Assembly: GCA_036743375.1 (NCBI GenBank)
Contig: DAINPP010000002.1
Coordinates: forward strand, 74,757 to 138,756
Direction: 5' to 3'
Source of the DNA: Thermotogota bacterium
GTDB lineage: Bacteria; Thermotogota; Thermotogae; MWEM01
DNA: 64,000 bases
Shown: in pieces, positions 26,108-61,330 of the stretch
How the letters are laid out: every line of letters starts with the position of its first letter
How positions within the stretch are numbered: the first letter of the stretch is position 1
Program-made: the position numbers and the translations under genes
The notes under the pieces: model-generated
Database searches by the model: none
What the model saw: only the letters and a program-made list of their open reading frames with translations
What the model was told of the DNA's origin: nothing

Positions 26108-26494
26108 TTACTTTCTCTTTCTTATTTCAGCTACTTCAGCAACAAAATCTCTCAAAGATTTCAAAACAAGTTCTATATTTTGTTTCACATCGATATCACT
26201 CACACGAAAAAATACAATCCCAAGTGATTCTAATCTCTTCTGACGTTTTTTATCTTTTTCTACTTTAAAATCATGAGTACATCCATCAATTTCTACAGCC
26301 AACATCAACTCTTTACAGAAAAAATCAACAATATAATGGTCAATTGGTTTTTGTCTGTTGAATTTATAACCTAACAATTTTCGATATTTTATCTCATTCC
26401 TAAGCAATACCTCAGACAGAGTCGACTTCTTCCTCAGCTCCTTCGCCAAAGGCAGTGATCGCTTATCATAACTTAAAACCCGTTCCTTCTCCAT
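26108..26494 (-). CDS. DUF559 endonuclease-like domain protein (Vsr/restriction-endonuclease-like fold)
   Basis: LRKKSTLSEVLLRNEI...LGYKFNRQKPIDHYIVDFFCKELMLAVEIDGCTHD...RLESLGIVFFRV matches the DUF559 pattern as remembered (...GxKFRRQ...YIxDFxC...L.IExDG..H). Confidence 0.65.
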   Translation of the reverse strand: MEKERVLSYDKRSLPLAKELRKKSTLSEVLLRNEIKYRKLLGYKFNRQKPIDHYIVDFFCKELMLAVEIDGCTHDFKVEKDKKRQKRLESLGIVFFRVSDIDVKQNIELVLKSLRDFVAEVAEIRKRK

Positions 26495-26553: not shown

Positions 26554-28248
26554 TTACCACTTGGAATCATCGATTGCTTCTATACTCTTTTCTATCCGTG
26601 CAACGGATTCGGCAACCGTTCCGTCGACAAACGGATTCTTTATTTTTGCCACTTCAAGCAGCTGAAGGAATGGTTTTGACCCGCCGGCATTACAGAGATC
26701 CTGATAATCTTTCCATGCCTGTTCCCTGTCTTCGTTCATCTTGTTGTAGAACTGGAAGGCACAGACCTGAGCCAGTGTGTAATCGATGTAGTAGAAAGGC
26801 ACTTCAAAGATGTGGGACTGTCTGAACCACATGGTCCCCTTCACATAGAATTTGTTGTCTTCGTAATCCCTGAGTGGAAGATATTTCTTTTCAATTTCTC
26901 TCCATTTCGCCTTTCTTTCATCCGGTGTTGCCTCGGGATTTTCATATACGAAATGCTGATACTCATCCACCGAGACACCGTAAGGAAGGAAGAGTATTGC
27001 TTCGGAGAGGTGTGAGAATCTGTGTTTCAGCATCTCATCTTCGAAGAAAAGCTGCATCCACGGATAGGTGAAGAATTCCATACTCATCGAGTGAATTTCA
27101 CACGCTTCGAGTGTTGGCCAGACATATTCGGGAGCTTCATAATTTCTGCTTGAAAATACCTGGAAGGCATGTCCCGCTTCATGGGTGAGTACTTCTACAT
27201 CCCCTGCCGTCCCATTAAAGTTTGCAAAGATAAACGGTGCCTTGTAATCAGGCAGGAATGTACAGTATCCGCCGCCCATCTTTCCCTTTCTGGCGAGAAC
27301 ATCAAACAACCCGTGTTCTGTCATGAATGTGAAGAAGTCTGCCGTTTCCTTTGAAAGCTCATCATACATCCTCAGGCCGTTCGCCATGATCTCTTCCGGT
27401 GTTCCCTTTGGATCGGCATTTCCCGAAGTAAATTTCAGCGGTTCATCGTAATATCTGAGTTTATCGTAGCCGAGTCTTGCCGCCTGTCTTTCAAGCAGCT
27501 TTGTCGCTATCGGAACAACGGACTCGTATACCTGATCTCTGTATCCCTTAACCATCTCGGCGTTGTAATCACTTCTGCCGAGTCTGATGTAGCCCAGTTC
27601 GGTGAACGTTTCATAACCGAGTTTCCTTGCCATTCTCGTTCTGACCTTGACGAGATTATCATACAGTTCATCCAGTTCTTTTTCATGGGCTTCAAAGAAA
27701 CCTGCATAGGCTTCATAAGCTGCTTTTCTGATCGTTCTGTCCTTGTTCTGGAAATAAGCTCTCATCTGTGAGAGATTTCTTTCCTCTCCGTCAAACATGA
27801 TTTTGGCCGAAGCGATGAGTTTTGTATGATCTGAACAGAGCTTGTTCTCTTCCTGAAGATCTTCGATGATCTCCGGTTTAAAGGTTTTAAGTTCCATCTC
27901 AGCGATGTTGAAGAGATGTTTTCCCCATTTTCCCTCGAGTTCTTTTCTGAACTTCGATTCAAGGATCGCCTTGTAATACTTGACGACGAGTTCCTGAAAA
28001 AGTGGCTGCGTCTGATCGAAGTATTCCTGCTCCGCTTCATAGAACTTGTCTTCCGTATTCACATCGTATCGGATATGACACAGCGTTCCCATCGTTTCTA
28101 CCGTTCTTCTGAGATCGTTTAGTTCTTTCATGATTGCATTCTGCTTTTCGGCCGTTTCCGCCACTTCAAAATCCGCAAGCAGCTTCTCGAAATCCATTTT
28201 GTAGGTATCAAAATCCGGTCTCTTGTACCCAAATTCTGTAAATTTCAA
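26554..28248 (-). CDS. pepF: Oligoendopeptidase F (M3B family zinc metallopeptidase)
   Basis: HEXXH zinc motif HEAGHAFQ and a downstream E (EACEIHSMSMEF). 564 aa. TTG start with a GGGGGTG SD. Confidence 0.8.
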   Translation of the reverse strand: MKFTEFGYKRPDFDTYKMDFEKLLADFEVAETAEKQNAIMKELNDLRRTVETMGTLCHIRYDVNTEDKFYEAEQEYFDQTQPLFQELVVKYYKAILESKFRKELEGKWGKHLFNIAEMELKTFKPEIIEDLQEENKLCSDHTKLIASAKIMFDGEERNLSQMRAYFQNKDRTIRKAAYEAYAGFFEAHEKELDELYDNLVKVRTRMARKLGYETFTELGYIRLGRSDYNAEMVKGYRDQVYESVVPIATKLLERQAARLGYDKLRYYDEPLKFTSGNADPKGTPEEIMANGLRMYDELSKETADFFTFMTEHGLFDVLARKGKMGGGYCTFLPDYKAPFIFANFNGTAGDVEVLTHEAGHAFQVFSSRNYEAPEYVWPTLEACEIHSMSMEFFTYPWMQLFFEDEMLKHRFSHLSEAILFLPYGVSVDEYQHFVYENPEATPDERKAKWREIEKKYLPLRDYEDNKFYVKGTMWFRQSHIFEVPFYYIDYTLAQVCAFQFYNKMNEDREQAWKDYQDLCNAGGSKPFLQLLEVAKIKNPFVDGTVAESVARIEKSIEAIDDSKW

Positions 28249-28541
28249 AATTAATGCACCCCCGTCTATATTTTATATACCGTTATTATATCAGCTTTTT
28301 TACCGTTTGAAACCGTAAAATCCGCTTATCTGTTCGGAAACATAACTTTTCATTTTTAAATCGTCAATAAACGGCATCATATAATCACCCTCGATGAGGA
28401 GGAACACTCTTTTCCCCTATCCGATCATCCACTTTAAAAGGCCGAACATTGAAAAACAATTTGTTTTTTTGATCAATCTTCACATAAACAGGTGTTCGTA
28501 TACGAAGTAGATCGTGTTTACCGATGGTATGCCCTTTCTCT

Positions 28542-28569
28542 TTGCGAAGAATTTCCGCTGTGCTATAAT
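28542..28569 (+). promoter_or_regulatory. Promoter of the giant lipoprotein gene: TTGCGA -35, 16-bp spacer, extended -10 TGcTATAAT
   Basis: -35 at 28542-28547; TGcTATAAT at 28561-28569; about 40 nt upstream of the ATG. Confidence 0.6.
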
Positions 28570-28609
28570 TTAAACAAATAAAATTCAACAGGGAGGTAAA
28601 ATATTACCC

Positions 28610-31600
28610 ATGAAGAAAATACTTTTTACGTTAATATTAATCATTTCATTAGTCTTTGTGTTTGTATCCTGTGCAAACCTGAAGCTTCCCGAAAGGATCA
28701 TTCACACATTGAATCTGAAAATACCCGGTTTGAACGAAAGATTCAAATTGGCTCCATTCGCCACAGAAACAACTGAAGCTTCGATCGTTTCAGTGCTTCC
28801 TGGATTCAAATTCATCACAGAGGATGGAACGGCGATGAGACTCTATTATGCCACACAAGTCAGCATCGGCTATGATGATATTTCAGAAAAGCTGGAGATT
28901 GATATTCAGTCATTGAAAGATGAGGCCTCTATTTCCTCTATCAGTACGAGCGTCGATATCGCCTTTTCAGATAAACTCGGTGACTTCACACTGCCGACGA
29001 TAGAAGCCTCATTCACACTGCCGGATTTTCAGATGGAAGGGACTTCGCTCATCATCAATTTTGACAAACCGGAGATAAATATCACCATCGCGTCGGAAAC
29101 CGTTGATGTGAACAGGCTTTACGTTGCAACGGAAACGGTCAGAAACATGCTGTTTAACAATACCAACATCACCGACGGGGTCATCATAAAGGGTGGAACC
29201 ATCGACATAACGGCAACAAACACGACCGATGCAACCTTCACCATTTCATTAAAGGCGGAGAATACGCCCAACACATTCGCTCAGTCCGGAGAAATAACGA
29301 TCACCGGAGGAGATAATCCCTCCCCGGTTTCCTTCCGTGGCGGAACGGGCCAGATTAACCTTGATATCGATGACATTCTGAGTGAAGACGCCACCATTAC
29401 GTTCGTTTCAACGGCCCTCGAACTCCCCCTCAAAGGGGGAACGCTGACATTGGACTTTGATATCAGCGATCTGGAAATTCTACTCGATAAGACCGAGTCG
29501 GCTTCAAATACGATCCCCGTCATAGCCGGGTCACCAGTTCGTACATGTGGAACGGTCTTTTCAATCAACACGGGATTGACTGAAGAGGCCACCTTGACAG
29601 GGGGAACACTTCAGGTATCGGGGGAGAACAATGCAGACAGCGAAATAGAATCTATGACCGTGAGTGTTCGAAATGAAAAGGGTGAAGTCATCGCAACACT
29701 CGATCTTGACAACGTGCCGGTATCCGATACTCAATACCGGACAACACCTTTCAGTACACCGGTTTTCATCAGCGACACGGCAAGTCTCACCGTTCTTGCC
29801 ACTTTAACGACGTTGCCCGCAACGGACGGCAGTATTACGATAACGGCAACCTTTAACGGGATACAGGTTCAGATTGCCAATCCGGTGAATTTTTCCGCCG
29901 AAGAGATAGAATTCGGATCGGCTCCGGATTTTGGAAGCAGCAGTCTCTTTACCATAGAACAACTCGCCACCGATACCGGTGAGCTCTCCGTAAATCCGGC
30001 AACACTGACCATCAACGTAAAAGGGCAGCAGGAGCTGGACGGATTGGGACTTGATCTGAATATACTGATCAACGATACGTCGAAGGGGACCTTTGATCTC
30101 AACATGGGGCAGGCCACGGGTCTCGTCATGGACCTCTCGGATACACGCTTCACGAGACAGGGAACCTTCACGATTCTTGCAACCCCTTATCTTGCACCGG
30201 ATAATACGCGGGCCTTCTTCGAAGGGCATCCTGAATTCGAGCCTTTTATCGATATGCAGCTGCTTTACGGAACGGATGTCATCCTCGACACACCAATCAC
30301 ATACAGCACTTCGGAAAGGGTAGAGACCGGACTCACTTCCGATTTTATCTTCGACAGTGTAACACTTAACGGGACACTTTCTTTCGATACGGCTATTCAG
30401 ACCTTGCCTCTTGAAGAGGATTATTCCGCTTCTGTAACGATAAAGGAGATCTTCGGAAAAACGATCGTGGCTACGTCCGTCGGTAATGGCAGCAATCGGA
30501 TAAACATAGATGGAAGTACGATCGGGGCCACCGATCTCGAGATCAGATTTGATTTTGTCACAGCGGAAGAACCGGTCAACATTGACTTCAACACGGAATA
30601 TGATGCCTCCGCCACGGCTATTCCGGACATCGGTATTTCAAACATTGCGAATCTCACGTTAAAGCCGGAAAGCTCATCACAGGCCATTCCACCAGTCAGC
30701 GGTCTTGTTCATGCAACCTTCCAGAGCGCAGACCTGAATATCGCCGTTGATTCCGATGCCCCTGCCATTGCACAGAGATTGTTCACCAGGGATATAAACC
30801 TGGATACGTTCAAGGCCACCTTGACAACGACAACAGATGCGTATCTCATAGAGTTCACGAGATCTGGTGATCTATATACGGCAAGCCTTGCCGATATCGA
30901 ACTCAACGGAGAGGGGGCAACACTGACACTCGGACCCCTTTCACTCGAATTCACCGATGAGGACGCCCTGAATCTCCCAAATCAGATCGATATCGCGGCC
31001 AGCATGACCAACGTCGTTTTCAGTCAGATCACCGTTGATGTCGCCGATTTCTATGACGATCTACAGGTAGCAGAATCTGAAACGTTTGATATACCGGAAG
31101 AGGCAAAGGATTATATCAAAGCCATCGTTCTTTCGGGAGATCCGAGGGTGAAGATCGAATGGTTCAACAACACACCGCTTGAATTCAACATCAGGGCGGC
31201 CGTCTCCAACGATATCCTTGACGAGTTCATCACGCTTTCCAACACGGGTGATGCGGCCAGTACAACCTGGATTGATCTGCCAAAGATCATCGATATAGAA
31301 GGCCTGGATTCCGTTTCGTTTGACCTTGAAGCGTCCCCGAATGGGCTCAATGCTGCTGAACAGCAGCTCACGATCAACAATTTCGTCTTCGACGCGCTGG
31401 ATGATTACAGAGTTGCGGCTACGGTTACCTTCAGAGATTTTTCTGAAAGCGTCATGCCGAGAGGTGAGACGATTACGATCAGTGAAGTCGTTCTCTATGG
31501 GGAAATCGATGAAGCCCTGTTCGATTTCATGAGGGATCAATTACCGGCTTTCTGGACGGACTATGCCGGTCAGATTCAGATCGATGATACACTGACGGAG

Positions 31601-32326
31601 GCCTTTGTAGAAATTGATGAAAAGATTCTGACTGAAAATCCGGATCTTGTGGCTACACTAACCATCTCCGGTAAGCCATCGGGCATCATCATCTCTGAAA
31701 TTCCGATAACGCTCGATACCGACACTCATTTTGAAGCGAATATCAATGAATTTCTTTCAAACCCGAGTACGGATCTTTCGTTCGGCATCGTTGCCCAAAT
31801 TGATGAGGCAACGGTAAATCTTGACAGTATCAGCGAAGATGCAACAGACCTGTTCGCCGCCAGTGTAACGGTCAGCATACCGGTCAGGTTCACGGTGGCT
31901 GAAGATATTTCGCTGCTCAGTGATACGATAAATCTCGAGGATGAACTGAACATCGAACTGAATGACCTGGATGCCATACTGAACATGATTCAATCCGCTA
32001 CCGCCGTTGTAACGGCTGTCAACAACTCCGGTGTTTCGGTTAAACTGGAACTCAGATGGGATTCGGCAGCCGGTGAACCGATCATCACCAATCCGCAGGG
32101 TGGGGCACTTGTTACACTAACAGACGGCACGTCCTCAAAATTCATCGTTACACTCGGTTCCGGAAACGATGCAAAGGACTTGCTTGAAAAGAATATCTAT
32201 GCACACATCATTCTTCCCGATTCAAACGGAGAATATTACACCATCATGGGAGATTCCGCCGTTGATCTTTCTATCTACCTCGATACGGTCGTAAGAGTAG
32301 AAATCCCCCTGGAATCTGAAAGGTAG
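28610..32326 (+). CDS. Giant acidic Thr/Ser/Asp/Glu/Ile-rich lipoprotein (1238 aa), likely a cell-surface protein. No recognisable enzymatic domain
   Basis: Signal peptide with lipobox MKKILFTLILIISLVFVFVS-C. Only one other Cys. Low-complexity beta-rich composition. Own extended -10 promoter (TGcTATAAT), GGGAGG SD, and a strong bidirectional terminator directly downstream. Confidence 0.75.
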   Translation: MKKILFTLILIISLVFVFVSCANLKLPERIIHTLNLKIPGLNERFKLAPFATETTEASIVSVLPGFKFITEDGTAMRLYYATQVSIGYDDISEKLEIDIQSLKDEASISSISTSVDIAFSDKLGDFTLPTIEASFTLPDFQMEGTSLIINFDKPEINITIASETVDVNRLYVATETVRNMLFNNTNITDGVIIKGGTIDITATNTTDATFTISLKAENTPNTFAQSGEITITGGDNPSPVSFRGGTGQINLDIDDILSEDATITFVSTALELPLKGGTLTLDFDISDLEILLDKTESASNTIPVIAGSPVRTCGTVFSINTGLTEEATLTGGTLQVSGENNADSEIESMTVSVRNEKGEVIATLDLDNVPVSDTQYRTTPFSTPVFISDTASLTVLATLTTLPATDGSITITATFNGIQVQIANPVNFSAEEIEFGSAPDFGSSSLFTIEQLATDTGELSVNPATLTINVKGQQELDGLGLDLNILINDTSKGTFDLNMGQATGLVMDLSDTRFTRQGTFTILATPYLAPDNTRAFFEGHPEFEPFIDMQLLYGTDVILDTPITYSTSERVETGLTSDFIFDSVTLNGTLSFDTAIQTLPLEEDYSASVTIKEIFGKTIVATSVGNGSNRINIDGSTIGATDLEIRFDFVTAEEPVNIDFNTEYDASATAIPDIGISNIANLTLKPESSSQAIPPVSGLVHATFQSADLNIAVDSDAPAIAQRLFTRDINLDTFKATLTTTTDAYLIEFTRSGDLYTASLADIELNGEGATLTLGPLSLEFTDEDALNLPNQIDIAASMTNVVFSQITVDVADFYDDLQVAESETFDIPEEAKDYIKAIVLSGDPRVKIEWFNNTPLEFNIRAAVSNDILDEFITLSNTGDAASTTWIDLPKIIDIEGLDSVSFDLEASPNGLNAAEQQLTINNFVFDALDDYRVAATVTFRDFSESVMPRGETITISEVVLYGEIDEALFDFMRDQLPAFWTDYAGQIQIDDTLTEAFVEIDEKILTENPDLVATLTISGKPSGIIISEIPITLDTDTHFEANINEFLSNPSTDLSFGIVAQIDEATVNLDSISEDATDLFAASVTVSIPVRFTVAEDISLLSDTINLEDELNIELNDLDAILNMIQSATAVVTAVNNSGVSVKLELRWDSAAGEPIITNPQGGALVTLTDGTSSKFIVTLGSGNDAKDLLEKNIYAHIILPDSNGEYYTIMGDSAVDLSIYLDTVVRVEIPLESER

Positions 32327-32337
32327 ACAACGGGGAA

Positions 32338-32378
32338 TAAAAAAGACGGACTTCGATGAATAGAAGTCCGTCTTTTTT
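32338..32378. terminator. Strong bidirectional terminator between the giant lipoprotein gene and hutU
   Basis: aaaagacggacttc-gatgaata-gaagtccgtctttt, with flanking A and T runs. Confidence 0.8.
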
Positions 32379-32395
32379 CGTTGTTTTAAAATGGT

Positions 32396-34417
32396 TTATT
32401 TTCTGTTCTCAAAAACTCTCTCGATCAATTCATCATTAGCGACAAACGGCAGGGTAATATGATCCTCTCCAACATGCTGTTTATTATATTCGGCCACGGT
32501 TGAAATCGAATTTTCATTTCTCGCCCATGCCCTTCTCGCAACACCACCCATTACATCCCAGGGGATTGCCTTCATGATGATATCGTCCACTCTTTCACTC
32601 CCGTCAAGAACCAGTCCGAATCCGCCGTTAACCGCTTTCCCGATACCGACACCGCCACCGTTGTGAAGCGCGATGAGACTCATTCCCCTTGAGGCGTTCC
32701 CCGCAAAACACTGGGTAGCCATATCCGCCATGATCATACTGCCGTCCTTGATATTCGAGGTCTCCCTGTACGGGGAATCTGTCCCGCCCGTATCATGATG
32801 ATCCCTTCCCAGCATGACCGGTCCGATCTCGCCATCTCTGACCATCTGATTGAATTTCAGGGCAATATCCCTTCGGCCAAGCGCATCCTGATAAAGGATT
32901 CTCGCCTGTGTTCCAACAACGAGGCCATTCTGTTCCGCATCTCGGATCCATATATAATTATCCCTGTCCTGTCCCCTTCTCTCAGGATCTATACAGTTCA
33001 TTGCCGCCTTGTCCGTTTTCATAAGATCTTCATGCCTTCCACTGAGGCAGACCCATCTGAACGGTCCGTACCCGTAATCAAAGAGCATCGGCCCCATGAT
33101 ATCCTCTACATAGGAGGGGAAGATGAATCCTTCTGAAGTATCCACTTTATTCTTTGCGATACCCTTTTCTCCCGTATCAAACACGGCCTTCATAAAGCTG
33201 TTTCCATAATCGAAGAAATAGGTTCCTCTTTCAACGAGTGTCTTGATCAATTTGTAATGCTTCTTCAGGGTTTCATCTACAAGCTTCCTGAAGCCGGCCT
33301 TATCTTCTGCCAGCATGCTTGTCCTTTCATCAAAACTGAGCCCCTGCGGACAGTATCCGCCGTCATACGGTACATGACAGGAGGTCTGATCCGAAAGCAG
33401 TTCAATCTCCACATCCTTGTCGACGGCATACTCAAGCAGATCGACGATGTTCCCGTGATAGGCAAGTGAGGCGGCTTTCCCTTCATTTTTCAGATGATCT
33501 GCCGCTTTGAAGACCTCGGCCGGATCGGCGTACAGCTCATCGATCCACCCCTGAACCTTTCTTGTCTCGATCCTCGAAAGATCTACTTCGGCGATGATCC
33601 CCACACCATTTGCAATCTTTACGGCTTTCCCCTGTGCACCACTCATGCCACCAAGTCCGGAAGAGACAAAGATATGACCTTTCAGATCGCCATCTTCCGG
33701 TATTCCCAATTTAATTCTGCCGGCATTCAGAATGGTGTTGAACGTTCCGTGGACGATCCCCTGCGGTCCGATATACATCCATCCGCCGGCCGTCATCTGC
33801 CCGTAATTGGCAACACCAAGTGCCGCTGCCTTATGCCAGTCTTCCTGATTGTCAAACTGTCCGATCATCAGTGAATTCGTGATGATGACCCTCGGACTTG
33901 ACTTGTGTGATTTAAAGAGTCCCAGAGGATGTCCGGAAGAAACTACCAGTGTCTGTTCATCCGTCAGCTGTTCCAGATATTTTTTAATCAACCTGTACTG
34001 CATCCAGTTCTGGCAAACCTGCCCGGTTTCTCCATACGTAACGAGTTCATAGGGATAAAGGGCGATCTCAAAATCCAGATTGTTGTCTATCATCACCTGA
34101 CAGGCCTTTCCTTCGATACAGTTTCCCTTGTATTCCTCTATCGGCTTTCCGTAAAGTCTTCCCGCCGGTCTGTATCGATAACCGTAAATACGTCCCATAC
34201 TGTAAAGCTCATCGAGAAACTCCGGTGCGAGCTCTTCATGAAGCTGCTCCGGAATATACCTGAGCGCATTTTTTAAAGCCAGCTTGATCTCGCGTTCGTT
34301 GAGTGTCAGTTCCCTTTTCGGAGCTCTTCGGATTCCAGCCATGAATTCCTTTTTTTCCGGTAATTCATCGCTTAATCGAATAGTCATTGCCTCCATTGCC
34401 AGTACATTTTCTCTCAT
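32396..34417 (-). CDS. hutU: Urocanate hydratase (urocanase), long ~670-aa form
   Basis: Conserved blocks GQMTAGGWMYIGPQGIVHGTFNT, LVVSSGHPLG, GGGVGIG. No hutH, hutI or hutG nearby. Confidence 0.85.
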   Translation of the reverse strand: MRENVLAMEAMTIRLSDELPEKKEFMAGIRRAPKRELTLNEREIKLALKNALRYIPEQLHEELAPEFLDELYSMGRIYGYRYRPAGRLYGKPIEEYKGNCIEGKACQVMIDNNLDFEIALYPYELVTYGETGQVCQNWMQYRLIKKYLEQLTDEQTLVVSSGHPLGLFKSHKSSPRVIITNSLMIGQFDNQEDWHKAAALGVANYGQMTAGGWMYIGPQGIVHGTFNTILNAGRIKLGIPEDGDLKGHIFVSSGLGGMSGAQGKAVKIANGVGIIAEVDLSRIETRKVQGWIDELYADPAEVFKAADHLKNEGKAASLAYHGNIVDLLEYAVDKDVEIELLSDQTSCHVPYDGGYCPQGLSFDERTSMLAEDKAGFRKLVDETLKKHYKLIKTLVERGTYFFDYGNSFMKAVFDTGEKGIAKNKVDTSEGFIFPSYVEDIMGPMLFDYGYGPFRWVCLSGRHEDLMKTDKAAMNCIDPERRGQDRDNYIWIRDAEQNGLVVGTQARILYQDALGRRDIALKFNQMVRDGEIGPVMLGRDHHDTGGTDSPYRETSNIKDGSMIMADMATQCFAGNASRGMSLIALHNGGGVGIGKAVNGGFGLVLDGSERVDDIIMKAIPWDVMGGVARRAWARNENSISTVAEYNKQHVGEDHITLPFVANDELIERVFENRK

Positions 34418-34596: not shown

Positions 34597-35676
34597 GTGA
34601 AAATCTTGCGAAAGAGGACTAAATTACTATGGAAAATTGGAATTCCATGTATCAGACTCTGGATAAGGCTCAGATACGATATCAAAGTAATCGGAGAATT
34701 GCCAAAACCACCTTATTTACTGCTTTCAAATCATTCACAGAATGTTGATCCCTTTTTTATACTAGCCGAAACTTCGAAGCCTGTTTCCTTTGTCATAAAC
34801 AACGCCGCTTTCCAGAACCCCGTTATAGGACTCGTTCTGCGATGGATAGACAGTATTCCGACTCAAAAATCATCGAAAGATGCCAAGACCGTCATGAGGA
34901 TCTTCCACTGGATAAAGGATGGAAGGATAGTGGGAATCTTTCCCGAAGGACATGCAACATGGGATGGGGAAAGTATCCCCGCGGTAGGGGCCACGGCAAA
35001 ACTGCTCAATCGCATCAAAATCCCGATCGTAACGATTACCATCAAGGGTGGATACTTGGTCAACCCCCGATGGGCAACCTATCGAAGAAAGGGAAAGATA
35101 GAAATACATATCGGAACCTTTGAAGATGAACAGGCGCTCGAAGCACTCAAACATTCCGACTGGCAATGGCAGGAGGAAACCGGGAATCTGTACAGGGGAA
35201 AAAATAAGGCCGTCGGTATCGAAAAGATCATGTGGTTCTGTCCGGAATGCGGGAGTTACCGGGGGATCCATTCCATCGGGGACAAAGTGGTCTGTAGAAA
35301 CTGTACTTATAAAAAAAACGTCAACGAAGACGGAAGGATCGGAGATCAAACGGTCAAACAGGTCCTTGATCGGCAGAGGGAATTGCTTAAGGTATACACC
35401 CTGAAGAAATTCCGACATGAATTCAGAAACTGCCGTCTGAAGATGTGGGGAAAAGGCAGAACTTTACGTTTGAAAAGAGAAAAAGGAACGCTGATCATCA
35501 CTGACGATCATCTGAAATTTAATGGTGAGGTCTACGAATTTCAGCGAATTTCGGGATTGAACACCTATGTATCAAGTATCGTTGAGTTTATATGCGATGA
35601 TAACAAACTGGTGAGGATCAAAACCAAAGAGGATTCCTTACTGATCACCGAATTATTAAAACTTATGGGGGTGTAG
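34597..35676 (+). CDS. Lysophospholipid/1-acylglycerol-3-phosphate acyltransferase family protein (PlsC-like) with a C-terminal Cys4 zinc-ribbon domain
   Basis: GTG start after a GAGGAA SD. Acyltransferase motif I NHSQNVD and motif III FPEG. C-terminal CPECG...CRNC. Confidence 0.65.
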   Translation: MKILRKRTKLLWKIGIPCIRLWIRLRYDIKVIGELPKPPYLLLSNHSQNVDPFFILAETSKPVSFVINNAAFQNPVIGLVLRWIDSIPTQKSSKDAKTVMRIFHWIKDGRIVGIFPEGHATWDGESIPAVGATAKLLNRIKIPIVTITIKGGYLVNPRWATYRRKGKIEIHIGTFEDEQALEALKHSDWQWQEETGNLYRGKNKAVGIEKIMWFCPECGSYRGIHSIGDKVVCRNCTYKKNVNEDGRIGDQTVKQVLDRQRELLKVYTLKKFRHEFRNCRLKMWGKGRTLRLKREKGTLIITDDHLKFNGEVYEFQRISGLNTYVSSIVEFICDDNKLVRIKTKEDSLLITELLKLMGV

Positions 35677-35678
35677 TC

Positions 35679-37031
35679 ATGTACTGGCAACAAATCGACG
35701 ATGTAATCTATATACTGATCCTTTTTGCCCTGGCTGTTCTGATGAAAAGACTTATTCCTGCATTCAGAAGATATCTCATTCCAAATTCTATCGTTGCAGG
35801 TTTTTTCGGTCTCCTGCTCGGGCCAAATCTTCTGAACCTGTTACCATTAAATCCGGACACACTTGGCGGAATCATCTACCATCTCATGGCCATAGGATTC
35901 ATCAGTCTCAGTCTTCGAACACCTGAAAAAACGGGTAAAAGCTGGAATTCCATGAATGCCGGAATGATCATCGTATCTACCTATCTGATACAGGGACTCC
36001 TGGGATTTGCCATGTCCTTTTTATGGAGCCTCGCGGATAAAAACGTTTCACCCATCATGGGGTTGATCCTTCCTATGGGATTTGGACAGGGACCCGGACA
36101 GGCCTTCTCAGTCGGAAACCAGTGGGAACAGCTCGGGATGCAGAATGGTGGTGCAATCGGTCTCGCCGTAGCCGCGGCCGGTTTTGGATGGGCCACCGTT
36201 GGTGGGATTATTATCCTCAACATCCTGCTGAAAAAGAAGAGAAAAAAGGATGCACCGGCTGAAGTGGAGATGAAAAAAGAGATTGTCGTCAAAGATTATG
36301 AATTTTCCGATATGGATGGCATGACCATTCAGTTTGTGTTCATCGGAATCATATATGCGGCGGTTTATCTGATCCTCGGCGGAGTCAACCGGTTACTCGC
36401 CTCATTTGGCACTTTTGGTGAAAGCCTCGGTTCCGTTCTCTGGGGATTCCATTTCGTCTTCGGTGCCATATTAGCCATTCTCTTCAGAACCGTTTACAAC
36501 AAGATGCACAAAAAAGGGGTGGCAAAGGAAAGATACCTGAACAACTTCATGCTCCAGAGAATCGCGGGATTCGTATTCGACTTCATGGTAGCCGCTTCCA
36601 TCAGTGCCGTGACCTTCAAGCGAATCGCCACCTCTTTCTGGCCGATCTTCTTCATCACCTTTGCCGGCGGTGTTCTGACCTTCTTCTACGTCTCCTTCAT
36701 CGTCAACCGGACGATGAAAGAGCATCGCCTCGCCAATACCATCGCGTTCTTTGGGCATCTGACCGGAACGATTTCCACGGGTATGGCGCTTTTAAGAGAA
36801 GTCGATCCGCTGATGAAAAGCGGAGCCCCTGAAAACATGATATTCGGAAGCGGGGTGGCCATTTTCTTTGGATTCCCGCTGATGGCTCTTCTGAGTTTAC
36901 CACCTATCGGATTAAAGACGGGAAATACGATGATGTACCTGTATACATTCCTCGGATTGATTGCCTATGCGGTGTTTTTGTACGTCTACTGGTATTTTCT
37001 TGCCAAAAGAAAGAACAAGAAGACCTATTGA
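35679..37031 (+). CDS. Polytopic membrane protein, GltS-like (sodium/glutamate symporter fold family)
   Basis: 450 aa with about 10-12 TM. LIPNSIVAGFFG...ISLSLR...LILPMGFGQGPGQA resembles GltS (IPEPVAGG...MSLRD...LSGGHGTGAA). It starts 3 nt after the acyltransferase stop. Confidence 0.45.
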   Translation: MYWQQIDDVIYILILFALAVLMKRLIPAFRRYLIPNSIVAGFFGLLLGPNLLNLLPLNPDTLGGIIYHLMAIGFISLSLRTPEKTGKSWNSMNAGMIIVSTYLIQGLLGFAMSFLWSLADKNVSPIMGLILPMGFGQGPGQAFSVGNQWEQLGMQNGGAIGLAVAAAGFGWATVGGIIILNILLKKKRKKDAPAEVEMKKEIVVKDYEFSDMDGMTIQFVFIGIIYAAVYLILGGVNRLLASFGTFGESLGSVLWGFHFVFGAILAILFRTVYNKMHKKGVAKERYLNNFMLQRIAGFVFDFMVAASISAVTFKRIATSFWPIFFITFAGGVLTFFYVSFIVNRTMKEHRLANTIAFFGHLTGTISTGMALLREVDPLMKSGAPENMIFGSGVAIFFGFPLMALLSLPPIGLKTGNTMMYLYTFLGLIAYAVFLYVYWYFLAKRKNKKTY

Positions 37032-38266
37032 TGAAGGGAAGTGAGGCTCCGATGAAAAAGATTCGCGAACGTGCGTTCATACAGATAGTGATCATCTTTC
37101 TCACGTTGATTATCGCTAATCTATGGAAGGATCCGGGGATGATCGAATTATCAGCAAAAGCGTTTTTAACCGTATCAATCGTGTTTTTTATCGTCATGCT
37201 TGTCAAGGTACTTAAGATGAAAAAAGATGAACAGGCGGCCTGGGCGGTTAATTCGTTTGATGATAGCCTGTCCGTCTGCATTACAACCGTCTGTAAGAAT
37301 GAAGGAGAGACGATACTCAATACCGTCAGGCATTATATGAGTTTTTCCGACAACGTGAGATTTGTCCTCTATGATGATCATTCCACAGACGGCTCCTTTG
37401 AAAGACTACAGGAGATGATGGAAACCTATAAAGGCCGACTTGTCCTGAAAAAGCTTAAAAAAAGGGATATTCAGATCCACCCGAAGGCCTTTGCCGTAGA
37501 GGATGCGTTCAACGAGATTGATTGTGATTATTTTCTGGTGATCGATTCGGATACGGTGATATCCGAGACCGATTTCAACCATGCGATCTGCGCCATGATC
37601 AACGAGAAGACGGATGTCCTGCATATCACGCGGAGAAACAACCTGAAACCCTGTCTTCCCTGTCAGATGGGGGACAAAGAGGAACTCATGAACATGGGAC
37701 TGCAGCTTCTGAGGCTTCAACCCGCTAATTTCCCGGGTTCGGGTTATTTTGTCAGGGCAACCCTCGTTAGGGACTTTAAATACGATGAAGACAGTCTGAG
37801 CGAAGACAATTATTTCCTCAAGGCGATCAAAAGGAAAACGGATAAGATCGAATTTTTCCTGACGCTTACCGCATCTGAAAGGGCTCCTGAGACTTTCGGA
37901 GATTTTGTAAAACAGAGGGTCAACTGGTTGAAGTTGGGGATTCCCTATTATCTGAAACAAGAATTGTCCCTGATGACACTCGGAAATATTCTCTTTACGC
38001 TGATCTTTTCGGCCCTGTTTAACCCGTTCAGTCCGGGACTCGTATTCATTGCATCCTGTACCGGTGTCATCCTCGGGATGCAGCTCGCCTTTGCCGTGGC
38101 GCTTACCCATGAAAATCCACTGAAGACCTTGTATCATACCCTCTGTTATCTCCTGACCATCGGCTATGTCCTGGGTTTTGTCTATTTCTGGCTTCAGATC
38201 ATGATATCTGCCGGAAAGAGTCGGTTTGCCGTAAAAAAGAACTGCATGGGTGAAAATGGGGTTTAA
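37028..38266 (+). CDS. Membrane-embedded family-2 glycosyltransferase (processive GT2-like, with N-terminal and C-terminal TM segments)
   Basis: DxD-type motifs YDDHSTDGS and IDSDTV, and a Q-R-V-N-W variant of QxxRW. Its ATG overlaps the upstream stop (ATGA). Alternative start at 37052. Confidence 0.6.
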   Translation: MMKGSEAPMKKIRERAFIQIVIIFLTLIIANLWKDPGMIELSAKAFLTVSIVFFIVMLVKVLKMKKDEQAAWAVNSFDDSLSVCITTVCKNEGETILNTVRHYMSFSDNVRFVLYDDHSTDGSFERLQEMMETYKGRLVLKKLKKRDIQIHPKAFAVEDAFNEIDCDYFLVIDSDTVISETDFNHAICAMINEKTDVLHITRRNNLKPCLPCQMGDKEELMNMGLQLLRLQPANFPGSGYFVRATLVRDFKYDEDSLSEDNYFLKAIKRKTDKIEFFLTLTASERAPETFGDFVKQRVNWLKLGIPYYLKQELSLMTLGNILFTLIFSALFNPFSPGLVFIASCTGVILGMQLAFAVALTHENPLKTLYHTLCYLLTIGYVLGFVYFWLQIMISAGKSRFAVKKNCMGENGV

Positions 38267-38341: not shown

Positions 38342-39184
38342 TTATTCAGCGTATTCGATGAAGATCTTTGACAGAATTTCCTTCTGTCCCCTGTCTTTGA
38401 AACTGTGATCAAGATCCAGTTCGAATCCCGTCGTACCGGAATTCTGATGAACCTGGAACTGTATTCTGTTGACGTAAGTCATGATATCCATTTTCCCGAA
38501 CACCCCGTCATTCACCTGGATATCGGTGACATCGTCAAAGTATTCGAGTATTGGTTCTGATTCGGGTGTTACCTCTCTTGTAATTTCTTCCCCCCTTGAA
38601 ATAAAAGTGATCGACGTGTTGTTCATAGTGGGCAGGATGTAATAAAGGCCATTCACAAAGATATACAAACCCTTTTCACCAAAATAGAAAGCGGCTTCCA
38701 TGAAAAGTGGCTCATCTCCGCCGACCGGTCTGAGCAATCTGTATGAACCCCCTTCGAAGCGAACCTTAAAGTAATCCCCTTTTGTCTCCACATCGCTCTG
38801 CGCATTGTCACTCTGTATGGAAATCTTTTCGATGTGATGTTCTGTCGGATCAAGTACCGGATAGAGGAAAGGTGCCGTGTTCCAGAAGAATCCACTTTCC
38901 ATCCTAACACCGTTGATAATCGGTGTGATACCCATGTAATGTTTGTCATCCGAGATGTTGTCGCAATCTATCTCAAACACATACTCGGGATGTGCCGGGT
39001 GATAGAAGGTGATGGCATATTCTTCCATATCGATATCGAACACCCATTCGGATGTTGCATCTTTCTGAAAGCTGATGGCCGGAAGCTGTGGTGCTGCGGC
39101 AGACTCTTCGGCAAAGGCTGCTGCGGAAATAAATGTCAAAAACAAAACGCTCAGAAGTATGATCCTCTTCAGATTTTTTTTCAT
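38342..39184 (-). CDS. Secreted hypothetical protein (280 aa)
   Basis: Signal peptide MKKNLKRIILLSVLFLTFISAAAFA. GGGAGGAACAA SD. No family recognised. Confidence 0.6.
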   Translation of the reverse strand: MKKNLKRIILLSVLFLTFISAAAFAEESAAAPQLPAISFQKDATSEWVFDIDMEEYAITFYHPAHPEYVFEIDCDNISDDKHYMGITPIINGVRMESGFFWNTAPFLYPVLDPTEHHIEKISIQSDNAQSDVETKGDYFKVRFEGGSYRLLRPVGGDEPLFMEAAFYFGEKGLYIFVNGLYYILPTMNNTSITFISRGEEITREVTPESEPILEYFDDVTDIQVNDGVFGKMDIMTYVNRIQFQVHQNSGTTGFELDLDHSFKDRGQKEILSKIFIEYAE

Positions 39185-61242: not shown

Positions 61243-61330
61243 GGAGAGATGGCCGAGCGGTCGAAGGCGCACGCTTGGAGTGCGTGTTATGGGAAACCAT
61301 ACGTGGGTTCAAATCCCACTCTCTCCGCCA
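61243..61330 (+). tRNA. tRNA-Ser (anticodon GGA) with long variable arm and encoded CCA
   Basis: GGAGAGA acceptor stem pairs with TCTCTCC. The anticodon loop TTGGAGT carries GGA. Long variable arm, T-arm GTGGGTTCAAATCCCAC, and 3' GCCA. TTGACC-N17-TATAAT promoter upstream and a hairpin terminator downstream. Confidence 0.85.

What the first reader, a model, noticed from the sequence alone, without database searches (positions are those of the whole stretch)
28538..32378. Monocistronic 1238-aa acidic Thr/Asp-rich lipoprotein with no recognisable domain
This is the largest gene in the window. It encodes a protein with a textbook lipoprotein signal (…LVFVFVS-C) followed by about 1200 residues dominated by T, S, D, E, I, L, N and G. 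There is essentially no Cys, and no catalytic or binding motif that I can recognise, which suggests a beta-rich surface adhesin or envelope protein. It has its own extended -10 promoter (TGcTATAAT), a strong SD, and one of the strongest bidirectional terminators in the window directly after the stop. It is therefore an insulated, probably highly expressed unit, inserted between pepF (divergent) and hutU (convergent). Large surface lipoproteins without family assignment are prime candidates for novel envelope structures, phage receptors or adhesins.
Basis: partly seen in the sequence, partly recalled or inferred. Interest (0 to 1): 0.6.

Follow-up and report, generated by a model that had tools for sequence, protein, structure and literature searches.

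The report
Giant orphan Thermotogota envelope lipoprotein
This is a real, conserved gene for a very large, very acidic lipid-anchored envelope protein found only in a few Thermotogota; in most relatives it sits directly upstream of a FadL-like outer-membrane barrel gene, but that partner is missing at this locus.

Summary
Window 28610-32326 (+) encodes a 1238-aa protein with a canonical lipoprotein signal (Cys21), pI about 4.05 and net charge -134. It has a conserved near-consensus promoter and a hairpin terminator, and lies between pepF and hutU.

It is not an artefact. A gap-free 1238-aa ortholog (73% identity) occupies the same slot in an independently assembled 3.98-Mb Thermotogae chromosome, and pN (0.16) is far below pS (0.80).

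No Pfam, NCBIfam, PHROG or PDB sequence match exists. Only about ten relatives turned up in 1.8-5.8 billion proteins, all Thermotogota (MAGs and Marinitoga) and all lipoproteins.

The large protein's own fold is unresolved (pLDDT 41). It is mostly beta, with two tandem modules of about 135 aa and the best-conserved stretch just after the lipid anchor.

Best reading: a modular envelope lipoprotein that docks on a FadL-like toga barrel. Surface versus periplasmic placement is undecided. Moderately interesting.

The parts
28542..28569 (+). Sigma-70-type promoter: -35 TTGCGA (28542-28547), 16-nt spacer, extended -10 TGcTATAAT (28561-28569)
   Evidence: 10 of 12 consensus positions with TG, the best site in the region; almost identical in the 73 % ortholog locus L001, although synonymous sites are saturated and the upstream neighbour differs.
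28590..28596 (+). Shine-Dalgarno AGGGAGG; the GGAGG core is 13 nt upstream of the ATG
   Evidence: The same position and spacing (AGGAGG) occur in L001.
28610..32326 (+). CDS of the 1238-aa acidic lipoprotein (stop codon included)
   Evidence: An identical protein, P0001, is on an ENA contig. A gap-free 1238-aa ortholog, P0002, has 73 % identity. pN 0.163 versus pS 0.80.
28610..28672 (+). Lipoprotein signal peptide (aa 1-20) plus the lipobox Cys21
   Evidence: PROSITE-type lipobox match; a Cys at the equivalent position in every homolog (FVSC, LTSC, MMSC, LASC, LSSC).
28697..29089 (+). N-terminal conserved module (aa ~30-160), the family hallmark directly after the lipid anchor
   Evidence: residues 61-120 are 72 % identical to L002, against about 40 % in the middle of the protein. 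The motif is recognisable in all seven aligned members; pN is 0.10 here versus 0.20-0.22 in the middle. L006 matches profile positions 4-107 at E 7e-13.
29093..29902 (+). Two tandem ~135-aa beta modules (aa 162-301 and 297-431); copy number varies between lineages
   Evidence: phmmer fragment self-hits; hhalign probability 71 %, E 4.6e-6. P0003 lacks aa ~304-430.
29903..30949 (+). Central, fastest-evolving beta-rich region (aa 432-780)
   Evidence: lowest identity to the orthologs (62-70 % to P0002, 33-49 % to L002); mostly strands.
30950..32323 (+). Conserved C-terminal region (aa 781-1238), mixed beta and short helices. Includes the motifs IPEEAK, IEWxNNTP and EASPxG.
   Evidence: invariant columns W851, N853, P856, A908-S909-P910; the strongest matches of Marinitoga homologs fall in profile positions 620-954; pLDDT 50-75 in parts of this region.
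32339..32378 (.). Intrinsic terminator hairpin (16-bp stem, 8-nt loop) flanked by an A-run and a T-run, shared with convergent hutU
   Evidence: the only terminator-like site in 28000-32800; a hairpin at the same place in L001 with a different stem sequence.

Best explanation
The gene encodes a Sec-exported, lipid-anchored (Cys21) and extremely acidic envelope protein. It is built as a chain of beta-rich modules.

Architecture:
- a conserved ~130-aa N-terminal module next to the lipid anchor;
- two tandem ~135-aa modules, whose number varies between lineages;
- a fast-evolving middle;
- a conserved ~450-aa C-terminal region.

It belongs to a previously undescribed family restricted to Thermotogota. 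The family's ancestral arrangement is a two-gene unit, with the lipoprotein gene followed by a gene for a 14-stranded FadL-like outer-membrane (toga) beta-barrel.

Proposed mechanism (inferred): after lipidation the protein docks on that barrel, probably through the conserved anchor-proximal module. This would resemble BamH docking on the FadL-like barrel BamG in Bacteroidota. The rest of the protein would extend as a long, negatively charged, variable array on the toga surface, acting as a coat or binding layer. In the window's lineage the lipoprotein gene has become a separate unit with its own promoter and terminator. Its barrel partner, if it is retained, must be encoded elsewhere.

Shown:
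- the gene is real and under constraint;
- the lipobox is present and conserved;
- the family is sparse and confined to one phylum;
- the gene pair is conserved in relatives;
- the partner has a FadL-like barrel fold.

Inferred:
- physical interaction between the two proteins;
- which end docks;
- surface exposure;
- the biological role.
For: The gene is real:
- Same-length, gap-free ortholog in the same pepF...hutU slot of an independently assembled chromosome.
- pN 0.163 against pS 0.80. The flanking genes hutU and pepF have pN 0.056 and 0.066.

It is a lipoprotein:
- Lipobox in the window protein and in all homologs.
- No other membrane segment.

It is an orphan family:
- Pfam, NCBIfam and PHROGs give nothing above cut-off.
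- PDB sequence search gives 0 hits.
- Exhaustive HMMER over 1.84 billion representatives gives 9 hits. The credible ones are all Thermotogota lipoproteins or their fragments.

The gene pair is conserved. The large gene is directly upstream of a 409-448-aa signal-peptide protein in:
- L002 and L005;
- L006 and L007;
- L008;
- L009;
- L012;
- L013.
The partners are mutually homologous: L002 vs L006 E 2e-53, and the family is listed.

The partner's fold:
- Model pLDDT 63.4, pTM 0.62.

Precedent: FadL-like barrels act as docking platforms for surface lipoproteins. BamH's conserved N-terminus is wedged in the barrel wall, and bamG2-bamH2 form an operon (PMC12578637).

Surface-like traits:
- Compositional outlier in the window.
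- Evolves 2.5-3 times faster than its neighbours, with conserved ends and a variable, module-gaining middle.
- Next to giant PKD/Big-type secreted proteins in Marinitoga.
Against: - No partner-like gene exists in the 64-kb window or in the 24-kb ortholog loci (tblastn; hmmsearch --max, best E 0.27). For this particular protein the barrel link is by homology only.
- The large protein's own model is poor (mean pLDDT 41.5, pTM 0.26). Foldseek gave only local beta-sandwich/jelly-roll-type matches with TM 0.08 or less, so 'chain of beta modules' is only weakly supported.
- There is no sequence similarity to BamH or to any solved lipoprotein.
- The partner shows no Pfam Toluene_X or DUF5723 hit at E up to 1. 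Foldseek E-values for it are 0.02 or worse, and its C-terminal 60 residues are modelled badly.
- Lol is reported as practically absent from Terrabacteria, including Thermotogae (bioRxiv 10.1101/2021.05.31.446380), so there is no known route to the toga's outer face.
- No expression, localisation or interaction data exist.
Confidence: 0.4

Rival explanations
1. Inner-membrane-anchored bridge across the periplasm. The lipid anchor stays in the outer leaflet of the cytoplasmic membrane. The elongated modular protein crosses the wide Thermotogota periplasm and contacts the FadL-like barrel from below. It would act as an inner membrane-to-toga tether or spacer, or as part of a route for hydrophobic molecules to or from a channel known elsewhere for lipid and hydrocarbon passage.
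For: - Lol is practically absent from Terrabacteria, including Thermotogae, and these phyla are described as lacking outer-membrane lipoproteins ancestrally (bioRxiv 10.1101/2021.05.31.446380).
- The toga has few lipid patches, and how lipid reaches it is an open question (PMC10160955).
- The partner's best fold matches are hydrophobic-substrate channels: FadL, TodX and TbuX.
- The conserved gene pair fits this topology as well as it fits surface display.
Against: - Fast evolution, module gain and loss, and extreme acidity are more typical of exposed proteins than of machinery.
- No TamB/AsmA/DUF490, Mla or Lpt-like domain is detected.
- Known FadL-like barrel and lipoprotein pairs bind on the extracellular side (PMC12578637).
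Confidence: 0.3
2. Stand-alone lipid-anchored binding or coat protein in this lineage. The window's clade has lost or never needed the barrel, and the protein works alone, for example as an anchored polymer-, mineral- or cell-binding adhesin.
For: - The unit is monocistronic, with its own conserved promoter and terminator, in both genomes of the clade.
- No partner is found nearby.
- The homolog search with the partner profile returned nothing from the two genomes that hold P0001 and P0002.
Against: - That search is limited by its word index and did not even return one of its own query members, so the absence is weak evidence.
- The anchor-proximal module, the candidate docking part, is the most constrained part within this clade (pN 0.10). 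It is 72 % identical to the partner-bearing L002 lineage. This argues that its interaction has been kept.
Confidence: 0.2
3. A highly diverged member of a known class whose domain is too remote to detect: an SLH-type S-layer or Omp-alpha-like protein, a TamB/AsmA-like lipid bridge, an Ig/BIg or beta-helix adhesin, or a glycoside hydrolase or CBM-bearing enzyme.
For: - Local Foldseek matches of the poor model include CBM22 tandems, GH101, Cry protoxin domains and phage tail proteins.
- Weak sub-threshold Pfam hits: FlgD_ig E 0.018 and DUF4369 E 0.041.
Against: - All Pfam and NCBIfam hits are below cut-off.
- The PDB profile search gives 0 hits at E up to 10.
- Foldseek TM is 0.08 or less, from a model with pLDDT 41.
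- No relatives on viral contigs.
- No conserved Cys or His, and few invariant polar residues that would suggest a catalytic site.
Confidence: 0.08
4. Not a real gene, or a chimeric assembly artefact.
For: None found. The window comes from a short-read-style metagenome contig (k141 name).
Against: - A colinear, gap-free ortholog of the same length in an independent complete chromosome.
- pN far below pS.
- Promoter, Shine-Dalgarno and terminator are all conserved.
- More distant homologs are colinear from the N-terminus to the C-terminus.
Confidence: 0.01

Closest known systems
Bacteroidota BamG-BamH and BamG2-BamH2 (FadL-like 14-stranded barrel plus surface-exposed lipoprotein; PMC12578637, PMC12611786)
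   Same: - A lipoprotein gene adjacent to a FadL-fold barrel gene; bamG2-bamH2 form an operon.
- In both cases the region next to the lipid anchor is the best-conserved part of the lipoprotein (PMC12578637).
   Different: - No sequence similarity of the large protein to BamH or to any PDB chain.
- Different phylum, one that lacks Lol and LPS.
- Nothing links this pair to BamA.
- No lipoprotein export signal of the Bacteroidota type: there are no acidic residues just after the Cys.
- In the window the barrel gene is absent.
FadL/TodX/TbuX hydrophobic-substrate channels (Pfam Toluene_X), compared with the partner protein of relatives
   Same: - Similar size, about 400-450 aa.
- Signal peptide, and a C-terminal aromatic or hydrophobic residue.
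   Different: - No Toluene_X Pfam hit at E up to 1, and 8-9 % identity in the structural alignments.
- The defining hatch domain and lateral opening could not be assessed on a model of pLDDT 63.
- Classical FadL genes are not paired with giant lipoproteins.
PorV (T9SS cargo shuttle, a FadL-like barrel) with its cargo proteins
   Different: - T9SS cargo carry C-terminal sorting domains and are not lipoproteins.
- No T9SS C-terminal domain or T9SS components were seen.
- To my knowledge T9SS is confined to Bacteroidota and their relatives.
Thermotoga toga components Omp-alpha/Omp-beta and the lineage-specific putative toga barrels (PMC10160955, PMC3387000)
   Same: - Same phylum and the same compartment.
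- Toga barrels are reported as lineage-specific, without homologs outside the phylum. The sparse distribution of this pair fits that picture.
   Different: - Omp-alpha has an SLH domain plus a coiled coil. The protein here has neither and is a lipoprotein.
- The partner resembles FadL rather than the trimeric porin-like Omp-beta.

Membership tests
Bacterial lipoproteins (Lgt/LspA substrates; PROSITE PS51257-type signal) | N-terminal signal peptide with a basic n-region and a hydrophobic h-region | tested here: met
   MKK followed by ILFTLILIISLVFVFVS. The top hydropathy 19-mer is at residues 4-22.
Bacterial lipoproteins (Lgt/LspA substrates; PROSITE PS51257-type signal) | Lipobox ending in an invariant Cys within the first ~35 residues | tested here: met
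   F-V-S-C21 matches the pattern. The Cys is conserved in all homologs.
Bacterial lipoproteins (Lgt/LspA substrates; PROSITE PS51257-type signal) | Actual diacylglyceryl modification and signal peptidase II cleavage | not testable with these tools
   Needs mass spectrometry or globomycin sensitivity.
FadL-like barrel plus lipoprotein pairs (BamG-BamH type) | A gene for a 14-stranded FadL-fold outer-membrane barrel adjacent to the lipoprotein gene | tested here: not met
   Window: a terminator and then convergent hutU follow the gene. No partner-like ORF exists in 64 kb or in the ortholog loci. The feature is met in all eight relatives' loci examined outside this clade: L002, L005, L006, L007, L008, L009, L012 and L013.
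FadL-like barrel plus lipoprotein pairs (BamG-BamH type) | Sequence or fold homology of the lipoprotein to BamH | tested here: not met
   The PDB profile search, which includes the BAM complex chains, gave 0 hits at E up to 10. The Foldseek top 50 has no BAM lipoprotein, but the query model is poor.
FadL-like barrel plus lipoprotein pairs (BamG-BamH type) | Physical complex, with the lipoprotein N-terminus bound to the barrel | not testable with these tools
Needs AlphaFold-Multimer, pull-down or cryo-EM.
FadL/Toluene_X family (applied to the partner protein of relatives) | Pfam PF03349 sequence match | tested here: not met
   No hit at E up to 1 for 10 partner proteins. The UniRef 'DUF5723' label on P0015 was also not reproduced.
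FadL/Toluene_X family (applied to the partner protein of relatives) | 14-stranded barrel fold | tested here: met
   [not shown]
SLH-anchored S-layer or Omp-alpha-type toga proteins | SLH domain, or a long coiled coil | tested here: not met
   No SLH hit. The model shows strands and only short helices.
TamB/AsmA-like envelope-spanning lipid bridges | DUF490 or AsmA domain, and an N-terminal signal anchor rather than a lipobox | tested here: not met
   No such Pfam or NCBIfam hit at E up to 10. The N-terminus is a lipobox signal. The fold (beta-taco) could not be judged from the poor model.
Ig-like/BIg/PKD repeat adhesins or beta-helix adhesins | Recognisable tandem Ig-like or beta-helix repeats | tested here: inconclusive
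   No Big, PKD or beta-helix Pfam hit; the best is FlgD_ig at E 0.018, below cut-off. Tandem ~135-aa repeats do exist, but their fold is unresolved.

The most novel reading that the evidence does not exclude
The family and its FadL-like partner form a Thermotogota-specific complex of an outer-membrane barrel and a surface lipoprotein. In other words, a large lipoprotein is exported to and displayed on the toga in a phylum that lacks Lol and LPS. That would imply an unknown, possibly barrel-assisted route for moving lipoproteins to the surface, and a new major component of the toga surface. The window's clade would show the two genes can be uncoupled.
Probability: 0.25. Interest if true: 0.7.

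Novelty: new variant of a known kind. Interest (0 to 1): 0.45.

Why it matters
Pairs of a beta-barrel and a surface lipoprotein have been described as a hallmark of Bacteroidota. Terrabacteria such as Thermotogota are thought to lack both outer-membrane lipoproteins and the Lol pathway.

A conserved operon of a giant lipoprotein and a FadL-like barrel in Thermotogota therefore gives a concrete system that can be tested in culture, because Marinitoga species grow in the laboratory. Three questions become testable:
- whether lipoproteins reach the toga;
- how they get there without Lol;
- what the lineage-specific toga barrels do.

These questions bear on models that use the toga to explain how outer membranes arose.

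For the window itself the result is more modest. It is a well-defined orphan envelope gene whose function remains unproven.

Tried and rejected
1. Curated family assignment. Pfam, NCBIfam, PHROGs and a PDB sequence profile search gave nothing usable.

2. Full-length AlphaFold2 model from a 5-sequence alignment. Mean pLDDT was 41.5. Foldseek against the PDB gave TM 0.08 or less, with only generic beta-sandwich or jelly-roll local matches: Cry protoxin, CBM22, picornavirus capsid proteins, the SID1 ectodomain and phage tail proteins. I rejected these as a basis for classification.

3. Giant repetitive proteins returned by the exhaustive search. P0008 and P0010 are PDZ-bearing, K/E/P-rich and AHNAK-like; P0009 has a Big_6 domain. 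Each matched stretch scores under 11 bits against a short periodic strand motif, and the totals are inflated by summing 8-20 repeats. Rejected as homologs.

4. A second word-index search with a 5-member alignment, plus scans of metagenome and viral contigs. These added no new family members.

5. The UniRef 'DUF5723' label on one partner protein was not reproduced by hmmscan. I kept it only as a hint, because DUF5723 proteins are outer-membrane barrels (bioRxiv 10.1101/2025.01.03.631275).

6. Remnants of the three extra L001 genes in the window's 360-bp upstream spacer. None were found. Only the promoter-proximal ~105 bp and the pepF-proximal ~57 bp are conserved.

7. Calcium-binding and RTX motifs. 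Absent.

8. Proteome-wide acidity, as in a halophile, as the explanation for the low pI. Rejected: the median pI of the window's ORFs is 5.65.

9. afdb50 fold search. The library was not available.

10. Adding L005 or the L006 partner to tool-restricted alignments.

Full report
**1. The observation**

The window carries an ATG-initiated ORF at 28610-32326 (+) of 1238 aa. It is the longest ORF in the 64 kb; the next is 791 aa.

The N-terminus, MKKILFTLILIISLVFVFVS-C, has a basic n-region, a 17-residue hydrophobic core and a lipobox ending at Cys21. It fits the PROSITE-type pattern, and no other hydrophobic segment exists in the protein.

K+R is only 4.8 %, net charge is -134 and pI is about 4.05. 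There are two Cys, at residues 21 and 313. This is not a property of the whole proteome. Among 40 long ORFs of the window the median pI is 5.65, K+R 11.5 % and T+S 11.1 %, and this protein is the extreme on all three.

The expression signals are also as described:
- A promoter-like site, TTGCGA-16 nt-TGcTATAAT (28542-28569), is the best in the region.
- A Shine-Dalgarno sequence, AGGGAGG, lies with its core 13 nt from the ATG.
- A hairpin with a 16-bp stem (32339-32378), flanked by A- and T-runs, is the only terminator-like site between 28000 and 32800.

The flanking genes are a divergent Peptidase_M3 (pepF-like) gene and a convergent urocanase (hutU) gene. Only 'highly expressed' remains untested.

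**2. A real gene, not an artefact**

An identical protein is on record from an ENA metagenome contig of 129,665 bp (P0001).

A 73 %-identical ortholog of exactly the same length aligns without a single gap (P0002). It lies in the same position, upstream of convergent hutU, in a 3.98-Mb chromosome labelled 'uncultured Thermotogae bacterium' (OY763325.1).

Between the two, synonymous sites are saturated (pS 0.80) while pN is 0.163. This indicates clear purifying selection, but the protein changes 2.5-3 times faster than hutU (pN 0.056) and pepF (pN 0.066).

The -35 and extended -10 elements, the Shine-Dalgarno sequence and its spacing are almost unchanged in the ortholog, even though a different gene lies upstream there. 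In L001 three genes (radical SAM, Pyr_redox_2 and isochorismatase) sit between pepF and this gene. The terminator is kept as a hairpin with a different stem sequence.

**3. How rare it is**

No curated model matches: nothing in Pfam or NCBIfam is above cut-off, PHROGs gives nothing, and a PDB sequence profile search gives 0 hits at E up to 10.

A word-index search of 5.8 billion clustered proteins found three proteins: the protein itself, the 73 % ortholog, and a 1110-aa relative at 47-51 % identity.

An exhaustive HMMER profile search of 1.84 billion representatives found nine:
- The ortholog P0002.
- Three N-terminal fragments (P0004, P0006, P0007).
- P0005: 915 aa, E 3e-44.
- P0011: 1168 aa, from an NCBI genome assembly (GCA_001021175.1) whose adjacent partner protein NCBI names for unclassified Marinitoga; E 9e-4.
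- Three giant repetitive proteins, which I reject. Each stretch scores under 11 bits against a short periodic strand motif, and the total is inflated by 8-20 repeats. Two of them are PDZ-bearing, K/E/P-rich and AHNAK-like.

The other collection scans added little:
- Representative genomes: two loci, namely the ortholog and a Thermotogaceae MAG.
- JGI metagenomes: one locus, which was already known.
- Viral contigs: nothing.

With the homologs found through gene context (see section 4), all members are Thermotogota and all carry a lipobox Cys: FVSC, LTSC, MMSC, LASC and LSSC.

**4. The informative context: a conserved partner that is missing here**

In every locus examined outside the window's own clade, the large gene is followed 2-28 nt downstream by a gene for a 409-448-aa protein with a signal peptide and no Pfam hit:
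- L002 and L005, Thermotogaceae MAG lineage;
- L006 and L007;
- L008, from assembly GCA_001021175.1, Marinitoga;
- L009, M. hydrogenitolerans;
- L012, Thermotogota MAG;
- L013, Marinitoga sp. 38H-ov.

The upstream large genes all match the family profile: L006 2e-56, L013 1e-15, L008 4e-12 and L009 7e-11.

The partners are homologous to one another. L002 vs L006 gives E 2e-53; L002 vs L008 is weak but colinear. They form their own small family, found only in Marinitoga and Thermotogota MAGs.

Their sequence features suggest an outer-membrane barrel: 7-10 % Gly, 11-16 % aromatic residues, no helical membrane segment, and a C-terminal ...SLYF in the MAG lineage.

Foldseek agrees on the class but without significance: best E 0.02, and TM about 0.3 to TodX and TbuX. 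At the sequence level the partner does not hit Toluene_X. The UniRef label 'DUF5723' on one member was not reproduced either. DUF5723 proteins are themselves described as outer-membrane barrels (bioRxiv 10.1101/2025.01.03.631275; PMC12937337).

In the window and in its 73 % ortholog there is no such gene. The stop codon is followed by the terminator and then convergent hutU. Neither tblastn nor a sensitive hmmsearch finds a partner-like ORF in the 64-kb window or the 24-kb ortholog loci; the best E is 0.27.

**5. Anatomy of the large protein**

The full-length model, from 5 sequences, is poor: mean pLDDT 41.5 and pTM 0.26. It is mostly beta-strand, with about a dozen short helices concentrated in the last third, and it reaches pLDDT 60-75 only in parts of the C-terminal half. 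Foldseek with this model gives only local matches to beta-sandwich or jelly-roll modules at TM 0.08 or less. I do not use these for classification.

Sequence analysis gives a clearer picture:
- **Internal repeat.** Residues 162-301 match 297-431 (hhalign probability 71 %, E 4.6e-6), and phmmer fragment hits show the same ~135-aa period. The 1110-aa relative lacks exactly one such unit, residues ~304-430. Marinitoga members carry extra internal duplications.
- **Polarised conservation.** Against the ortholog, the first and last ~155 residues are 82-83 % identical (pN 0.09-0.11) and the middle is 64-70 % (pN 0.20-0.22). Against the 50 % relative, the best block is residues 61-120 (72 %), followed by 781-840 and 1021-1140 (65-67 %), while the middle falls to 33-45 %.
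- **N-terminal hallmark.** A motif just after the anchor (..IPG/VPVA..AP.F..E.SI..L.G..G...YAT) can be recognised in all members.
- **C-terminal motifs.** IPEEAK, IEWxNNTP and EASPxG include several of the few invariant columns.
- **Absent features.** There is no calcium-binding or RTX motif, no C-terminal anchor and no SLH domain.

**6. Mechanism**

Shown:
- a lipobox signal, conserved across the family;
- an orphan family confined to Thermotogota;
- a conserved two-gene arrangement with a FadL-fold barrel;
- a modular protein that is fast-evolving in the middle and conserved at the ends.

Inferred: the lipoprotein and the barrel act together in the outer envelope, the toga.

The closest worked example is in Bacteroidota. 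There the FadL-like barrel BamG is the platform for the surface lipoprotein BamH. BamH's conserved N-terminus is wedged into the barrel wall, and the paralogous bamG2-bamH2 genes form an operon. PorV, another FadL-like barrel, holds type IX secretion cargo (PMC12578637).

By analogy, I propose that the conserved anchor-proximal module docks on the barrel and that the acidic, variable remainder extends away from it.

I favour surface display (confidence 0.4) for four reasons:
- the extreme composition;
- the fast evolution;
- the gain and loss of modules;
- the neighbouring giant PKD/Big-type secreted proteins in Marinitoga.

The main rival (0.3) is an inner-membrane-anchored protein that spans the periplasm to the barrel. 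It is favoured by the report that Lol is practically absent from Terrabacteria, including Thermotogae, and that these phyla ancestrally lack outer-membrane lipoproteins (bioRxiv 10.1101/2021.05.31.446380). It is also consistent with the open question of how lipids and hydrophobic molecules reach the toga (PMC10160955).

A third possibility (0.2) is that the window's clade uses the protein without any barrel. The strong constraint on the anchor-proximal module within this clade argues mildly against that.

**7. Comparison with known families, and novelty**

The protein meets the sequence definition of a bacterial lipoprotein. It is not a member of any other described family:
- BamH-like: no sequence similarity.
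- SLH or Omp-alpha: no SLH domain and no coiled coil.
- TamB/AsmA: no DUF490 or AsmA domain, and a lipobox rather than a signal anchor.
- Ig, BIg, PKD or beta-helix adhesins: no hits, and the fold of the repeats is unresolved.

What the family's gene pair resembles, a FadL-like barrel with a large lipoprotein, is a known kind of system. It has been described for a different phylum and with unrelated lipoproteins. In the window itself the defining adjacency is not met.

I therefore rate it a new variant of a known kind. I found no paper describing this family in the literature searches run.

**8. Verdict**

The interpretation 'envelope lipoprotein' is supported. 'Surface adhesin or phage receptor' and 'highly expressed' are not tested.

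The main added value is the discovery of the conserved FadL-like barrel partner in relatives and its absence here.

Interest is moderate (0.45). It is an orphan envelope protein in a phylum whose outer envelope is of evolutionary interest, and there is a concrete route to testing it in cultured Marinitoga. However, all functional statements rest on gene context, one medium-confidence model and analogy.

Noticed in passing
L008 1-7611; L009 8409-15257: In Marinitoga the lipoprotein-barrel pair lies next to a 2235-aa secreted protein with faint PKD, Big_7 and Y_Y_Y hits and an ~855-aa secreted protein with no Pfam hit. The order differs between the two genomes (before the pair in L008, after it in L009). 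This may be a larger surface-protein gene cluster.
   Followed up: partly
L010 3491-8065 (Marinitoga lauensis QHLX01000004.1): The large gene is split into two ORFs: 727 aa (N-terminal part) and 350 aa (C-terminal part), each 63-67 % identical to other Marinitoga copies. The partner is truncated to 354 aa, and a DDE transposase gene lies about 1 kb downstream. The pair appears to be decaying in this species, or the assembly has frameshifts.
   Followed up: partly
window 28249-28609 versus L001 6977-10000: The ortholog genome has three extra genes (radical SAM, Pyr_redox_2 and isochorismatase; all on the minus strand) between pepF and the lipoprotein gene. The window has only a 360-bp spacer with no remnants of them. 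Only ~57 bp next to pepF and ~105 bp of the promoter region are conserved.
   Followed up: yes
window 26108-26494 (-): A 128-aa DUF559/MTES_1575 (endonuclease-like) gene sits between the AlkZ-like glycosylase gene and pepF in the window. It is absent at that place in the ortholog locus L001. It is a small variable insertion.
   Followed up: no
window 38342-39184 (-): A 280-aa protein with a signal peptide (MKKNLKRIILLSVLFLTFISAAAFA), pI 4.56 and no Pfam hit: a second small orphan secreted acidic protein in the window.
   Followed up: no
window 34597-38266 (+): An apparent operon of an acyltransferase (PF01553), a 450-aa polytopic membrane protein with no Pfam hit, and a family-2 glycosyltransferase. 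The first two are also present next to hutU in the ortholog genome. This may be a lipid or glycolipid modification module.
   Followed up: no
P0008, P0010 (hits): Residues ~114-160 of the window protein (..FTLPTIEASFTLPDFQMEGTSLIINFDKPEINIT..) align repeatedly to the ~128-146-aa repeats of PDZ-bearing, AHNAK-like giant proteins. I judged this to be convergence on a short proline-punctuated strand motif rather than homology.
   Followed up: yes
OY763325.1 (L001/L004): The ortholog's chromosome is 3.98 Mb. To my knowledge that is large for Thermotogota. The window has 39-49 % GC in 2-kb blocks. The lineage's exact taxonomy was not resolved.
   Followed up: no
window 61243-61330 (+): tRNA-Ser(GGA) is the only RNA gene detected in the window.
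   Followed up: yes
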